Shown here piece after piece: positions 4,702 through 7,689 of a stretch of DNA of 64,000 nucleotides; the first letter of the stretch is position 1, and each line of letters opens with the position of its first letter. Source of the stretch: a virus (taxonomy: Duplodnaviria > Caudoviricetes); IMG/VR virus record IMGVR_UViG_3300010163_000006, positions 91,672 through 155,671 of that record. One strand, written 5' to 3'. The position numbers and the translations under genes are program-made. The notes under the pieces are model-generated. The model made no database searches. It saw only the letters and a program-made list of their open reading frames with translations, and had not been told where the DNA came from.

Positions 4702-6006
4702 TTATTGTTGAGATAAAATGTCATAATATCGAGAGACGTCAAATCCCAGTTTGTTTAGCTTGTCTATAAATTCCTTATAAGACTTCCGACCCAGATTTCG
4801 TATCTTCATTATATCTTCAGGAGCAGTAGATAATATATCACCAATTGTACGGATTCCTCCGCATTTCAGGGAATTGAAAGTCCTGACACTTAAGTCGATT
4901 AAATCTATATCCGTATCCTCTGTAAATTCAGGTATCTTCCCATCAACATCGAGAGAAATTTCTTGTGTTCGCAGTACCCCATACTTAAGAATCATCAACG
5001 CTCTTTTGTCCGCGATAATAGCGTTCGATATTTCTTCAACTGATTGTCTGGTATCAATACCCAAAATATGGATCAGAAATTCGACAGTCTCGACGTCACA
5101 AAGGTTGTCATCGAGATATCTCATGTTGTATATGTTTTCATACACACGTCTACCCAAGCGTGTAGAATTCTTTTCAACAAGATGCCGCAGCTTGTTTTTG
5201 TGTTCTCCATAAACGATAGTCCTTAGTGCTCGGGCTTCTATTTGTCTTATTCTATCCGGAGTAAGATTGTATTCATTTGCTATCTCTGTCAGAGTCATGT
5301 GATCAATAAACCTCTTGTCAAGTATATCAATATCTCTAATTTGTCTAATTGATCTTTGAATAAAGAGCTCGATATCTGTAGTATCTGTTCCGATAATTTC
5401 AAGATCATCTGAAAAGAAATCCATACCGTCTACTGCTGCAGCGATTAAGTTCCATGGATAGAGACTATATTGCACGGGGTATATGTTGGATATCATCTTT
5501 TCCATCCGTGTGAAATAAGGATTCTCTTTGTAATGGTAGATCTTTGCACAAGCGATTATGTTCGCAAGTTCACGCACGGTCTTGTAGATGTGGTTGTTAT
5601 TTATCACCATCTCAAGTAGGTCTGGTTCTAACCATAATCGTGAGATTGTGACGTCGGGAGAAAACTTCGATAAACGGATATCCTCAGTTTTCCAGAACTT
5701 TGATTTCAGCTTATCGGTAGGGATACTAACCCTTTGGGATACTAATGTCATTCCTGTATGTTCACTAATTGATTTCGGAGAAACTCCTAATATATTCCTA
5801 TAACCAAAAGCGATTAATGTGTCGTCACCGATGGTTGACAAAAGATCGTCAATCTTTTTCATGAGTTTATCCTCATTGATTTCTTCAATATCATTCAGAG
5901 ACAATCCCGGGAGAAATCCCTTCTCGATCAATCTCGTTATGATTGTTTTCACATCGACACCGGCTTCGAATACGTGGTTGTTAATAACTAATTCGCTAAA
6001 CTTCAT
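4702..6006 (-). CDS. Protein with sigma-70 region-4 HTH and C-terminal RNA polymerase alpha-CTD domain
   Basis: MTLTEIANEYNLTPDRIRQIEARALRTI (sigma 4.2) and IDLIDLSVRTFNSLKCGGIRTIGDIL...IRNLGRKSYKEF (alpha-CTD); GGAAGGAG RBS. Confidence 0.8.
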   Translation of the reverse strand: MKFSELVINNHVFEAGVDVKTIITRLIEKGFLPGLSLNDIEEINEDKLMKKIDDLLSTIGDDTLIAFGYRNILGVSPKSISEHTGMTLVSQRVSIPTDKLKSKFWKTEDIRLSKFSPDVTISRLWLEPDLLEMVINNNHIYKTVRELANIIACAKIYHYKENPYFTRMEKMISNIYPVQYSLYPWNLIAAAVDGMDFFSDDLEIIGTDTTDIELFIQRSIRQIRDIDILDKRFIDHMTLTEIANEYNLTPDRIRQIEARALRTIVYGEHKNKLRHLVEKNSTRLGRRVYENIYNMRYLDDNLCDVETVEFLIHILGIDTRQSVEEISNAIIADKRALMILKYGVLRTQEISLDVDGKIPEFTEDTDIDLIDLSVRTFNSLKCGGIRTIGDILSTAPEDIMKIRNLGRKSYKEFIDKLNKLGFDVSRYYDILSQQ

Positions 6007-6164: not shown

Positions 6165-6183
6165 GCCGGGCATTATGCCCGGC
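6165..6183 (-). terminator. Terminator at the end of the tRNA cluster
   Basis: gccgggcat-t-atgcccggc with an A-rich left flank. Confidence 0.65.
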
Positions 6184-6237
6184 GTTAGAGAAAGAATTAG
6201 TAGGATAAATTTGTTCCGTAGTTTGTAGAACACGGAG

Positions 6238-6293
6238 TGGTTGTGGTAGAGGAATTCGAATCTCCGGAATGACAGAGTCAAATCAATACCACA
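6238..6293 (-). pseudogene. Truncated tRNA-Gln(UUG)-like element lacking the D arm
   Basis: Acceptor TGTGGTA/TACCACA plus ACCA, TTCGAAT T-loop and TTTGAC-TCTGT anticodon 3' half; about 20 nt missing. Confidence 0.6.
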
Positions 6294-6369
6294 TGGTTGG
6301 GATGCCCAGATTCGAACTGGGGGAATTACGGGGTCAAGGCCCGCCGCATTACCGCTTTGCTACACCCCA
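6294..6369 (-). tRNA. tRNA-Gln(UUG)
   Basis: Cloverleaf: TGGGGTG/CATCCCA-ACCA, anticodon arm GCGGG-CCTTGAC-CCCGT, TTCGAAT. Confidence 0.8.
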
Positions 6370-6442
6370 ATTTACTTCCCTTTTGTATATTGGTTGCCTT
6401 TAAACTTATGACCCATTGCGTTTTGACGATACCACAATATTT

Positions 6443-6517
6443 TGGTGACGCGTATGAGGATCGAACTCACGTCACCGCCGTGAAAGGGCGGTGTCTTAAC
6501 CACTTGACTAACGCGCC
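6443..6517 (-). tRNA. tRNA-Glu(UUC)
   Basis: GGCGCGT/ACGCGTC-ACCA, CCGCC-CTTTCAC-GGCGG. Confidence 0.9.
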
Positions 6518-6521
6518 AGTT

Positions 6522-6596
6522 TGGAGGTCCCGTCCAGAGTTGAACTGGAGATCGTGGTGTTGCGGACCACTGTCTTAACCTCTTGACTACGGGATC
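6522..6596 (-). tRNA. tRNA-Cys(GCA)
   Basis: GTGGT-CCGCAAC-ACCAC anticodon arm, U73 discriminator (TCCA end). Confidence 0.8.
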
Positions 6597-6598
6597 AT

Positions 6599-6722
6599 GT
6601 GGATTAGATGTGTATTTTTAATGGACCGTTATATTCCACATTACCTCCTCCGTTGATACAGAGCTGCAGTGTGTCAACTTCTGGTGTTCTCGGATTTTAA
6701 ACTAATGATACACATAATCCAC
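6599..6722 (-). ncRNA. Unknown structured RNA, copy 1
   Basis: Terminal stem, 9-bp/9-nt hairpin at 6652-6678, sequence blocks shared with 7201-7307. Confidence 0.6.
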
Positions 6723-6724
6723 TT

Positions 6725-6802
6725 TGGTGGGATATGCTGGATTCGAACCAGCGTCATAACGCCGTGCACAACGTATACTTTTCCCCGCTAAAATAATATC
6801 CC
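6725..6802 (-). pseudogene. Degenerate tRNA (UGC/Ala-like loop)
   Basis: GGGATAT/ATATCCC-ACCA and GCTGG-TTCGAAT-CCAGC intact; anticodon loop irregular (GTGCAC); no G3:U70. Confidence 0.55.
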
Positions 6803-6805
6803 ATT

Positions 6806-6881
6806 TGGTGGATGGTGATGGAGTTGAACCACTATTCTCATTATCGTCGTGATAATGCACTTTCCTTAAGCTACATGCGTC
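6806..6881 (-). pseudogene. Highly degenerate tRNA-like element
   Basis: CCA end, GTGG-TTCAACT-CCAT T-arm-like hairpin, CATTATC/GATAATG hairpin; acceptor stem poorly paired. Confidence 0.4.
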
Positions 6882-7200
6882 ATTTTATATTTATACGTCT
6901 GCCAAGGGATCTACATACGGTGTACATGGAAATAGATCAAATATCCCTTTGTTCCAGTCATCAAACAGATCGTCTTTACTGATTGTCGGATTGCCTTCCC
7001 TTGCCATGATTGTTGAAAGAGAGCAATTGGTACACTATACGCATCCTATTACATATTTCTTATCTCCTTTTGACACTTCGCGTGTTACATATTTTACTTT
7101 ATCGGCAGAATTACACCGAGGACATGGATTGATATTCATGTATGCCATCCTTTACCAAGACATCTTTATGTAGTATGAATTTAAAAATATATAATAAACA

Positions 7201-7307
7201 AAATGTGTATCGGGGCTCGGGAAGCGACCCCTCCTCCTCACTCAATGCATAGCCATGGTACATTGAGGTCTGGTGTTCTCATTAACTTTAAACTATTAAC
7301 ACATTTC
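7201..7307 (-). ncRNA. Unknown structured RNA, copy 2
   Basis: Terminal stem aaatgtgt/acacattt, 9-bp/9-nt hairpin at 7241-7267, blocks shared with copy 1. Confidence 0.6.
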
Positions 7308-7387
7308 ATTTATTATTGTAATCGCCAACCCAGACGATCACCACATTCGCCACACCTGATGGTCTCCCTATCGAATGCATTCCTCGT

Positions 7388-7472
7388 TGGTGACTGAGGT
7401 GGGACTCGAACCCACATACCTTTCGATACGGGTACTTGAAGCCCGCGCGTCTGCCAATTCCGCCACTCAGGC
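7388..7472 (-). tRNA. tRNA-Leu(CAA)
   Basis: GGCGGAATTGGCAGAC D arm, TTCAAGT loop, long variable arm, GTGGG-TTCGAGT-CCCAC, ACCA. Confidence 0.85.
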
Positions 7473-7689
7473 AAATGGGACGCATCATGGCCTTTACCTA
7501 ACAACGAGGGAAGCCTCCTATGATACGTCCATTTATAGAGGTCAACACACCATCACTCTTCCAATGACGATGTGTATATTACTGTAATAATATTATCTAA
7601 AAATATTTGGTGTTAAATGACCTTCCTTTACTGCAAACAGTTTATACATGATAAATCTCCTTATTTATTCATCTGATAACAGATCGAGA

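What the first reader, a model, noticed from the sequence alone, without database searches (positions are those of the whole stretch)
6599..7307. Two copies of an unrecognised ncRNA with covarying stems and palindromic loops in the tRNA cluster
Seen: 6599-6722 and 7201-7307 share, on minus, ATGTGT...TAGTTTAAA...GAGAACACCAGA-[9-bp stem, 9-nt loop]-N-GAGGAGG...ATACACAT with the same spacing around the hairpin. The stems differ in sequence (GTTGACACA/TGTATCAAC vs CTCAATGTA/TGCATTGAG) yet both pair. The loops CTGCAGCTC and CCATGGCTA each begin with a different self-complementary hexamer (CTGCAG, CCATGG). The 5' part looks like a tRNA D arm. Inference: a tRNA-derived RNA family that may dimerise through kissing loops, with an exposed SD-like GGAGG.
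Basis: partly seen in the sequence, partly recalled or inferred. Interest (0 to 1): 0.75.

Follow-up and report, generated by a model that had tools for sequence, protein, structure and literature searches.

The report
Sealed cloverleaf RNAs in phage tRNA operon
Two copies of a previously undescribed, about 125-base folded RNA gene sit among the tRNA genes of a large gut-type phage; the fold is real and strongly conserved in a few sister phages, but its job is still unknown.

Summary
Copy A (7316-7191, minus) and copy B (6722-6599, minus) are paralogues of one structured RNA. A 15-18-bp terminal helix closes a four-way junction. The junction carries a D-arm-like hairpin, a long arm (C-G, C-G, tandem G.A, 9 bp, 9-nt loop) and a third bulged hairpin.

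UAGUUUAAA, GAGAACACCAGA and GAGGAGG are identical in both copies, while the helices differ with compensating changes. One C.A mismatch sits in B's stem.

Rfam 15 has no match. ARAGORN and the Rfam tRNA model do not call them.

I found orthologues of copy A in four related phage contigs, each directly after tRNA-Leu(CAA). Their core is 93% identical to A. The neighbouring tRNA is 72% identical, and third codon positions of the nearby polymerase gene are 47% identical.

A model built from A-type sequences alone recovers B end to end. Copy B fills the gap between two tRNA genes to within 2 nt on each side.

Best reading: a stable tRNA-derived "sealed cloverleaf" RNA, released by tRNA processing, that acts through its invariant junction strands.

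It is probably not a Ro60 partner. The kissing-loop idea survives only as a weak possibility.

The parts
7191..7316 (-). Copy A, whole RNA gene (126 nt): terminal helix, four-way junction, three inner hairpins
   Evidence: Folding z-score -3.58. R1 89.3 bits and R2 142 bits. Orthologues in L246-L249.
6599..6722 (-). Copy B, whole RNA gene (124 nt). It fills the spacer between the odd tRNA (6802-6725) and tRNA-Cys (6596-6522), with 2 nt left on each side.
   Evidence: R1 84.1 bits. Found end to end by R2, a model built without it (46.5 bits, E 2e-9). Spacer map.
7299..7316 (-). Copy A terminal helix, 5' strand. It pairs with 7208-7191: 18 bp including tandem U.G/G.U.
   Evidence: Compensating changes against B and against the L246-type orthologues.
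7191..7208 (-). Copy A terminal helix, 3' strand
7275..7295 (-). Copy A: invariant UAGUUUAAA and the D-arm-like hairpin (GUUU with GAAC, 11-nt loop)
   Evidence: RNAalifold consensus on the hand alignment. The pairs never vary, so they are untested by covariation.
7269..7280 (-). Copy A: invariant GAGAACACCAGA. It holds the 3' half of the D-like stem, then C-C which pairs with G-G, then the G-A of a tandem G.A.
7241..7267 (-). Copy A long-arm hairpin: 9 bp (one U.G) and 9-nt loop CCAUGGCUA (7258-7250)
7233..7239 (-). Copy A: invariant GAGGAGG (junction strand, partly paired)
7212..7231 (-). Copy A third hairpin: GGGG/CCCC, bulged G, UCG/CGA, loop CUUCC
6652..6678 (-). Copy B long-arm hairpin: 9 positions with one C.A mismatch, and 9-nt loop CUGCAGCUC (6669-6661)
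6680..6704 (-). Copy B: UAGUUUAAA, D-like hairpin and GAGAACACCAGA
6644..6650 (-). Copy B: invariant GAGGAGG
6619..6643 (-). Copy B third hairpin: UAAU/AUUA, bulged GU, GGA/UCC, loop AUAUAACGG
6165..7616 (-). The likely single transcription unit that carries both copies. In order: promoter-like site 7616-7587; tRNA-Leu(CAA) 7472-7388; copy A; Lar-family ORF 7139-6891; weak tRNA-like 6875-6816; odd tRNA 6802-6725; copy B; tRNA-Cys, tRNA-Glu and tRNA-Gln; terminator-like hairpin 6183-6165.
   Evidence: The promoter and terminator are consensus matches only.

Best explanation
Copies A and B are two paralogous genes for a stable, about 125-nt "sealed cloverleaf" RNA that probably descends from a tRNA.

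The long terminal helix takes the place of an open acceptor stem, so there is no free CCA end. The D arm is retained. The anticodon arm is lengthened to C-G, C-G, tandem G.A, then 9 bp and a 9-nt loop. The T arm has decayed into a bulged hairpin.

The RNA is made as part of the phage's tRNA operon transcript. It is set free by the enzymes that trim the neighbouring tRNAs: RNase P at the 5' end of the next tRNA, and 3'-end trimming of the previous one. RNase III may also cut in the long helix. The paired ends then protect it from exonucleases.

The working surface is the set of invariant junction strands (UAGUUUAAA, GAGAACACCAGA, GAGGAGG). Most likely this is a docking site for a host or phage protein that normally handles tRNA or the ribosome. 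On that reading the RNA acts as a mimic, decoy or scaffold.

Shown:
- the fold, the paralogy and the orthology
- the strong sequence constraint
- the exact fit between tRNA genes
- the absence of a match in Rfam (all 4,227 families)

Inferred:
- transcription and processing
- tRNA descent
- protein binding

My odds: about 0.8 that this is a selected, structured RNA gene family released from the tRNA transcript. About 0.35 that it works as a protein-binding tRNA mimic.
For: Fold and paralogy:
- Identical blocks are separated by helices of different sequence that still pair.
- RNAalifold gives a four-way junction.
- Model R2, built from A-type sequences only, finds B over all 124 positions at 46.5 bits.
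- Pair counts: 97.3% of cells paired, 13 pairs changed on both sides, 0 of 500 shuffles as high, slid controls 0-2.

Orthologues and constraint:
- L246, L247, L248 and L249 each carry one copy directly after the CCA of tRNA-Leu(CAA), at about 80 bits.
- The core is 93.1% identical to copy A. By comparison, tRNA-Leu is 71.9% identical, the polymerase gene 75.4%, third codon positions 47.1%, and the next 60 nt 64.6%.

Release by tRNA processing:
- Copy B is 2 nt from the tRNA on each side.
- All tRNAs are on the same strand, between a promoter-like and a terminator-like site.

tRNA descent:
- The junction spacing is tRNA-like.
- Relative L181 has a tRNA-like module that passes the Rfam tRNA cut-off (29.6 bits). 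It has a 51-nt insert, a 13-bp closed acceptor helix and a very similar D arm.
- Modules bracketed by stems of 13 bp or more are 8.6 times enriched in the tRNA clusters of this phage group. For 15 bp or more the enrichment is 32 times.

Not coding: no shared open frame, and the blocks are out of frame with each other because of a 2-nt indel.
Against: - There is no expression data; no sequencing run could be listed.
- Folding energy does not tell the two strands apart. Copy B's long-arm stem is perfect only on the plus strand, where its C.A becomes G.U. Three G.U pairs in A favour the minus strand.
- Copy B's own minimum-energy fold is not the consensus fold.
- The D-like stem and the C-C/G-G pairs never vary, so they rest on prediction alone.
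- No tRNA detector accepts the elements.
- No partner protein is identified. The genome has no match to TROVE, Thg1, RtcB, RNA ligase or RNase III.
- The high similarity to the L246-type copies could reflect recent transfer rather than constraint.
- The family is known from only six loci.
Confidence: 0.55

Rival explanations
1. Self-pairing RNA. Each RNA forms a homodimer through its palindromic loop hexamer: CCAUGG in A and CUGCAG in B. The two loops cannot pair with each other, so the paralogues would form separate dimers. This could be an added feature of the main reading rather than a replacement for it.
For: - Both 9-nt loops start with a palindromic hexamer in the same register, and positions 2-5 differ by two compensating pairs.
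- CCAUGG is kept in four orthologues although loop position 7 changes.
- Computed duplex energies are -7.8 and -7.7 kcal/mol for the self-pairs, against -3.8 for A with B.
Against: - Palindromic hexamers are not enriched in tRNA-cluster spacers of the group (99 seen against 118 expected).
- The chance estimate is only about 1 in 256 and was made after the fact.
- The orthologues are too close to A to test conservation.
- The third apparent case, GUGCAC in the odd tRNA, folds as a closing G-C pair plus a UGCA tetraloop.
- Ordinary T loops also contain the palindrome TTCGAA.
- The palindrome sits at the 5' edge of the loop, not centred between unpaired purines as in the HIV-1 dimerisation loop. 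That comparison rests on my own knowledge.
Confidence: 0.2
2. Y-RNA-like partner of a Ro60 (TROVE) protein. The long terminal helix would bind the Ro60 ring, and the inner domain would recruit another factor.
For: - General shape: about 125 nt, with a long stem formed by the two ends and a large inner domain. This matches the description of Y RNAs in PMC4201824.
- In L246-L249 the orthologue lies about 0.65 kb upstream of a TROVE gene on the same strand.
- TROVE genes are common at this locus in the group.
Against: - The window's genome has two copies but no TROVE match, by Pfam model or by the relatives' protein.
- The family is absent from 24 TROVE loci of IMG/VR, and from the TROVE-bearing relatives L177 and L182.
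- The elements have no GNCGAAN0-1G motif and no ACAGCAA, and no Rfam YrlA hit.
- A different signature, GA[UA]GCAG[UG]..[GA][UA]UACUUC, tracks TROVE instead. It gives 27 hits in 9 of 29 TROVE loci, none in 951 kb of control loci and none in this genome.
Confidence: 0.1
3. Purely cis-acting processing module. The long helices would be RNase III (or similar) cleavage sites that separate tRNAs in the polycistronic transcript, and the excised piece would have no function of its own.
For: - Helices of 15-18 bp, with an irregularity 7-8 bp from the inner end in both copies: tandem wobble pairs in A and a CU bulge in B.
- Stem-bracketed modules are enriched in the tRNA clusters of the whole group.
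Against: - A processing stem does not need 28 invariant unpaired nucleotides, or two further conserved hairpins.
- The core is kept at 93% while the neighbouring tRNA has drifted to 72%.
- The outer helix, which would be the cleavage site, is the least conserved part in sequence.
- Copy B is flanked so tightly by tRNAs that RNase P and 3' trimming would suffice.
Confidence: 0.1
4. A new small ribozyme or ligand-binding aptamer. Conserved junction nucleotides combined with freely varying helices is the usual look of both.
For: - Invariant strands sit at a multi-helix junction while the helices covary.
- Self-cleaving ribozymes are known beside phage tRNAs (my own knowledge; not checked here).
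Against: - No match to any ribozyme or riboswitch family in Rfam, even at E <= 10.
- I found no conserved pseudoknot partner for the junction strands by eye.
- tRNA processing already explains the ends.
Confidence: 0.05

Closest known systems
Phage T4 species 1 and species 2 RNAs (rnaC, rnaD)
   Same: - Small stable RNAs (139 and 119 nt as annotated) encoded on the tRNA strand at the end of the phage's tRNA cluster.
- rnaC folds with a tRNA-type T arm and paired ends.
- As far as I know their function is still unknown (own knowledge).
   Different: No sequence or model similarity: R1 finds nothing in the T4 tRNA region. T4 rnaC keeps a canonical T loop, which the window's RNAs do not. The terminal helix is far longer here.
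Bacterial and phage Y RNAs, YrlA type (Rfam RF02553; Chen et al. 2014, PMC4201824)
   Same: - Size of 80-130 nt, a long stem made by the two ends, and a tRNA-like inner domain.
- Often found among phage tRNA genes.
- Orthologues in four relatives lie near a TROVE gene.
   Different: - Not circularly permuted.
- No T arm.
- No GNCGAAN0-1G motif.
- No RF02553 hit.
- Present in a genome without TROVE, and absent from most TROVE loci tested.
Sealed tRNA-like modules in sister phages (for example L181 6947-7079)
   Same: A cloverleaf with the acceptor helix extended into a closed 13-bp stem, a similar D arm, an enlarged anticodon arm, and a position inside the tRNA cluster.
   Different: The L181 module still passes the Rfam tRNA cut-off and has a recognisable T loop. 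The window's RNAs pass neither test and share no further sequence with it: R1 and R2 find nothing in L181.
ROOL and GOLLD RNAs (large phage RNAs found next to tRNAs)
   Same: Structured phage RNAs associated with tRNA genes. They are reported to form homo-oligomers through loop contacts (own knowledge).
   Different: They are four to six times larger, and there is no Rfam hit to either in the window.

Membership tests
tRNA (Rfam RF00005; ARAGORN) | Recognised by a tRNA covariance model or by ARAGORN: 7-bp open acceptor stem, 7-nt anticodon loop, T loop | tested here: not met
   No RF00005 hit on either element at E <= 10, even when each element was searched alone. ARAGORN in standard, intron and mitochondrial modes calls neither.
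tRNA (Rfam RF00005; ARAGORN) | Cloverleaf topology with tRNA-like junction spacing | tested here: inconclusive
   The consensus fold is a four-way junction. It has 1 nt between the D-like and long arms and 3-4 nt before the third hairpin. However, there are 5-7 nt after the terminal helix and 3 nt before its return. The D-like pairs never vary.
YrlA / Y RNA (RF02553) | GNCGAAN0-1G (Ro60-binding) motif near the 5' end | tested here: not met
   Absent from both elements. The only match in the operon is GGCGAATG at 7351, in the spacer upstream of copy A; it is expected by chance about 0.7 times.
YrlA / Y RNA (RF02553) | Permuted tRNA-like domain with T and D arms; match to RF02553 | tested here: not met
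   No RF02553 hit at E <= 10. The order of arms is not permuted and no T loop is present.
YrlA / Y RNA (RF02553) | Encoded within a few kb of a Ro60/TROVE gene on the same strand | tested here: not met
   No TROVE match in the 155,671-bp genome. The feature is met in L246-L249. The family is absent from 24 other TROVE loci and from L177 and L182.
YrlA / Y RNA (RF02553) | 80-130 nt, with a long stem formed by the 5' and 3' ends and a large inner domain | tested here: met
   124 and 126 nt, with terminal helices of 15 and 18 bp.
Kissing-loop dimerisation hairpin (HIV-1 DIS type) | Apical loop that presents a self-complementary hexamer | tested here: inconclusive
   The hexamers CCAUGG and CUGCAG are present in the same register and CCAUGG is kept in close orthologues. 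There is no enrichment of palindromes in the wider class. Dimer formation itself cannot be tested here.
Kink-turn | Helix, 3-nt bulge, tandem sheared G.A and A.G, second helix | tested here: not met
   By reading: C-C/G-G, then a 1-nt bulge (A), then G-A opposite G-A, then a non-standard N.N (C.U in A, A.G in B) and the 9-bp stem. The tandem G.A arrangement fits, but the bulge is 1 nt rather than 3.
Known self-cleaving ribozymes and riboswitches (Rfam 15) | Match to a curated covariance model | tested here: not met
   Nothing at the gathering thresholds, and nothing meaningful at E <= 10.

The most novel reading that the evidence does not exclude
The sealed cloverleaf is a new functional RNA class of large phages. 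Its invariant junction would form either a catalytic or a ligand- or protein-binding pocket. Its palindromic apical loops would make each paralogue assemble with itself only, giving two separate RNA dimers that work independently of Ro60.
Probability: 0.12. Interest if true: 0.8.

Novelty: new variant of a known kind. Interest (0 to 1): 0.5.

Why it matters
Large phages carry tRNA clusters that also hold small RNAs nobody has explained; T4's species 1 and 2 RNAs have been open for some fifty years.

This family is a clean, compact example. It has a defined fold, invariant junction strands, two paralogues in one genome and orthologues in sister phages. It is conserved more strongly than the tRNA next to it.

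It also seems independent of the Ro60 protein that explains other tRNA-like RNAs at the same locus. It therefore points to a second, unknown use of tRNA mimicry by phages.

If a partner or an activity were found, it could show what such RNAs do during infection. The finding stays modest for now: six loci, no expression data and no function.

Tried and rejected
**Searches for more family members**
- Pattern scans for the invariant blocks gave only chance or coding matches. These covered IMG/VR contigs, JGI metagenome contigs and one genome per prokaryote species.
- blastn against 50,697 phage records hit only the tRNAs.
- Models R1 and R2 found nothing in five whole related IMG/VR genomes, in most related contigs, in 24 TROVE loci or in the T4 tRNA region.
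- The flanking genes are orphans, so synteny could not lead to closer relatives: the sigma region 4 plus alpha-CTD fusion and a 203-aa protein.

**Expression**

**Ideas tested and dropped**
- A general theme of palindromic loops in the spacers of this phage group: rejected.
- An antisense target for loop B: the 13-nt repeat at genome position 28,163 lies in a gene of the same sense, so it is not a target.
- Stop-codon recoding as a reason for odd tRNA-like genes: open frames under the standard code cover 94% of the genome.
- DNA-level readings (integron attC, miniature transposon, restriction-site decoy) were considered. There are only two copies, the terminal repeats differ between copies while the centre is conserved, and CTGCAG, CCATGG and GTGCAC occur at expected frequencies in the genome.

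**No phage-encoded partner found**
- No RNA-repair or RNase III gene was found in the genome.

Full report
**What is in the sequence**

Read on the minus strand, 7316-7191 (copy A) and 6722-6599 (copy B) share three identical blocks with the same spacing: UAGUUUAAA, GAGAACACCAGA and GAGGAGG. The inner 6 bp of a closing helix (AUGUGU with ACACAU) are also identical.

The combined pattern occurs only at these two places in the window and in the whole 155,671-bp virus record, and in none of 100 shuffles.

Copy A has 9 bp including one U.G. Copy B has one C.A mismatch among its nine positions. The loops are CCAUGGCUA and CUGCAGCUC.

Three further features were missed:
- The closing helix continues outward. 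It is 18 bp in A. In B it is 7 + 8 bp around a CU bulge.
- After GAGGAGG both copies have a third hairpin of the same design (4 bp, bulge, 3 bp) but unrelated sequence.
- Copy B fills the spacer between an odd tRNA and tRNA-Cys, leaving 2 nt on each side.

**The fold**

With a hand alignment, RNAalifold returns a four-way junction: terminal helix, a short D-arm-like hairpin (GUUU with GAAC), the long arm and the third hairpin. The long arm reads C-G, C-G, a bulged A, G.A, A.G, a non-standard pair, then 9 bp.

Between A and B, 34 of 35 comparable pairs form in both copies and 17 are changed on both sides. Sliding the partners by 1-3 columns leaves 1-3 such pairs.

Each copy folds better than its shuffles (z = -3.58 and -2.46). 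The plus strands fold about as well, so energy does not fix the strand. The tRNA genes, a promoter-like site at 7616-7587 and a terminator-like hairpin at 6183-6165 all point to the minus strand.

**Is it known?**

Rfam 15 gives no hit at the gathering thresholds. At E <= 10 it gives nothing meaningful, whether on the 1.5-kb operon or on each element alone. ARAGORN in three modes does not call the elements. The T4 species 1 and 2 RNAs share the setting, but neither sequence nor model similarity.

**Relatives**

The window belongs to a phage with its own multisubunit RNA polymerase and a divergent family B DNA polymerase. The beta'-like subunit has relatives at 60-87% identity on contigs of 230-290 kb.

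The stretch downstream of that gene is highly variable, and the genes flanking the tRNA operon here are orphans. Most related loci have no copy of the family.

Four Logan contigs do (L246-L249). Each has one copy at about 80 bits with the core model, starting right after the CCA of tRNA-Leu(CAA).

Their core is 93.1% identical to copy A. The adjacent tRNA-Leu is 71.9% identical, the polymerase gene 75.4%, third codon positions 47.1%, and the next 60 nt 64.6%. The changes they do carry sit mostly in the outer helix and are compensated (A-U to G-C). One further change is a U.G to C.A exchange at one position of the long arm.

A full-length model built from these A-type sequences alone finds copy B over all 124 positions (46.5 bits, E about 2e-9). 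On the resulting five-sequence alignment:
- 97.3% of cells pair.
- 13 pairs change on both sides.
- No shuffle of 500 reaches this.
- Slid controls give 0-2.

That alignment was fitted to the model, which favours the structure. The hand count and the single-sequence folds agree with it.

**Ro60?**

Many sister phages carry a TROVE (Ro60-like) gene at this locus. One scores 25.6 bits against a Pfam cut-off of 23. In L246-L249 the TROVE gene lies about 0.65 kb downstream of the orthologue, which made a Y-RNA reading attractive. It does not hold up:
- This genome has two copies but no TROVE match.
- The family is absent from 24 TROVE loci of IMG/VR and from the TROVE-bearing L177 and L182.
- The elements lack the GNCGAAN0-1G motif of Chen et al. 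2014 (PMC4201824). They also lack the ACAGCAA signature noted earlier in this scan.
- A different motif, GA[UA]GCAG[UG]..[GA][UA]UACUUC, follows TROVE. It gives 27 hits in 9 of 29 TROVE loci, always on the gene's strand, with none in 951 kb of control loci and none in this genome.

**tRNA descent**

The tRNA clusters of this phage group are full of modules bracketed by long stems. Enrichment over the rest of the DNA is 8.6-fold for stems of 13 bp or more and 32-fold for 15 bp or more.

One module, in L181, still passes the Rfam tRNA cut-off. It carries a 51-nt insert in the anticodon loop and an acceptor helix extended into a closed 13-bp stem. Its D arm reads UAGCUUAAAG..AGAGCA, against UAGUUUAAAG..GAGAACA here.

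I therefore read the window's RNAs as a further-diverged, sealed tRNA derivative. This is inference. The D-like pairs never vary in the data.

**Palindromic loops**

Both loops begin with a palindromic hexamer, and the inner four positions differ by two compensating pairs. Given the shared C1 and G6, the chance is about 1 in 256, reckoned after the fact.

CCAUGG is kept in the orthologues, but their long arm is nearly identical to A's. Palindromic hexamers are not enriched in the spacers of the group. The GUGCAC of the neighbouring odd tRNA folds into a stem plus a UGCA tetraloop. Self-pairing energies are about -7.8 kcal/mol. Dimerisation is possible but unproven.

**Verdict**

This is a real, selected, structured RNA family that is absent from Rfam. 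It most likely derives from a tRNA and is released from the tRNA operon transcript. Its function is unknown. My best guess is a protein-binding tRNA mimic that acts through the invariant junction. I class it as a new variant of the known kind "small tRNA-like RNAs in phage tRNA clusters".

Noticed in passing
whole genome G000 (window = G000:C1:91672-155671): The tetranucleotide CTAG is completely absent from the 155,671-bp genome: 0 found against about 543 expected from base composition. ACTAGT, CCTAGG, GCTAGC and TCTAGA are all at zero. This suggests very strong selection against a CTAG-specific restriction or repair system.
   Followed up: partly
window 7139-6891 (-): A Lar-family restriction-alleviation gene (Pfam PF14354, 33.7 bits against a cut-off of 28.6) sits inside the tRNA operon with an in-frame TAG at codon 35. 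The Pfam match runs across the stop. No suppressor tRNA was found, so it is either a pseudogene or read through.
   Followed up: partly
window 6802-6725 (-): A tRNA-like gene with a normal acceptor stem, T arm and encoded CCA. Its anticodon arm is replaced by a 6-bp stem capped by a UGCA tetraloop; ARAGORN reports a four-base anticodon 'tgca'. It cannot decode.
   Followed up: partly
window 6875-6816 (-): A weak tRNA-like remnant (Rfam tRNA 16.4 bits). With introns allowed, ARAGORN proposes a 158-nt tRNA-Leu(taa) with a 61-nt insert over 6963-6806, which overlaps the end of the Lar-family ORF.
   Followed up: no
L177 12283-15995; L246 12641-14760; L260, L264, L269, L273, L282: A recurrent motif, GA[UA]GCAG[UG]-N5-12-[GA][UA]UACUUC, lies next to TROVE (Ro60-like) genes and inside tRNA-like genes of sister phages. 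It gives 27 hits in 9 of 29 TROVE loci, all on the gene's strand, and none in 951 kb of control loci. It is a candidate Ro60-binding signature for this phage group.
   Followed up: partly
L177 12716-12878 and 13115-13260; L246 12472-12610: Sister phages carry tRNA genes with insertions of about 50-70 nt at the anticodon loop. These are too short for group I introns, and they contain the motif above. ARAGORN in intron mode calls two of them in L177 (tRNA-Leu i(33,71) and tRNA-Asn i(33,49)); the L246 example is read from the sequence.
   Followed up: no
L181 5990-6087 and L101 13152-13273: Another conserved stem-bracketed RNA lies directly after tRNA-Leu(CAA) in two other relatives. The two share CCAAGAGAACGGUUG .. 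CAUAGCAAC .. a canonical T arm. There is no Rfam hit.
   Followed up: no
window 4702-6006 (-): A protein that fuses sigma-70 region 4 with an RNA polymerase alpha C-terminal domain. It has no close relative among 5.8 billion proteins.
   Followed up: partly
genome ends: The first 60 bases recur 69 bases from the end, pointing to a terminal overlap of about 69 bp. That would fit a circular, complete assembly. CheckV's estimate of 58% completeness rests on relatives of about 270 kb.
   Followed up: no
window 7387-7317 (-): The 71-nt stretch between tRNA-Leu(CAA) and copy A is missing in the four orthologous loci, where the RNA abuts the tRNA. It folds into two hairpins (z = -2.39) and holds the only GNCGAAN0-1G match in the operon.
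   Followed up: no
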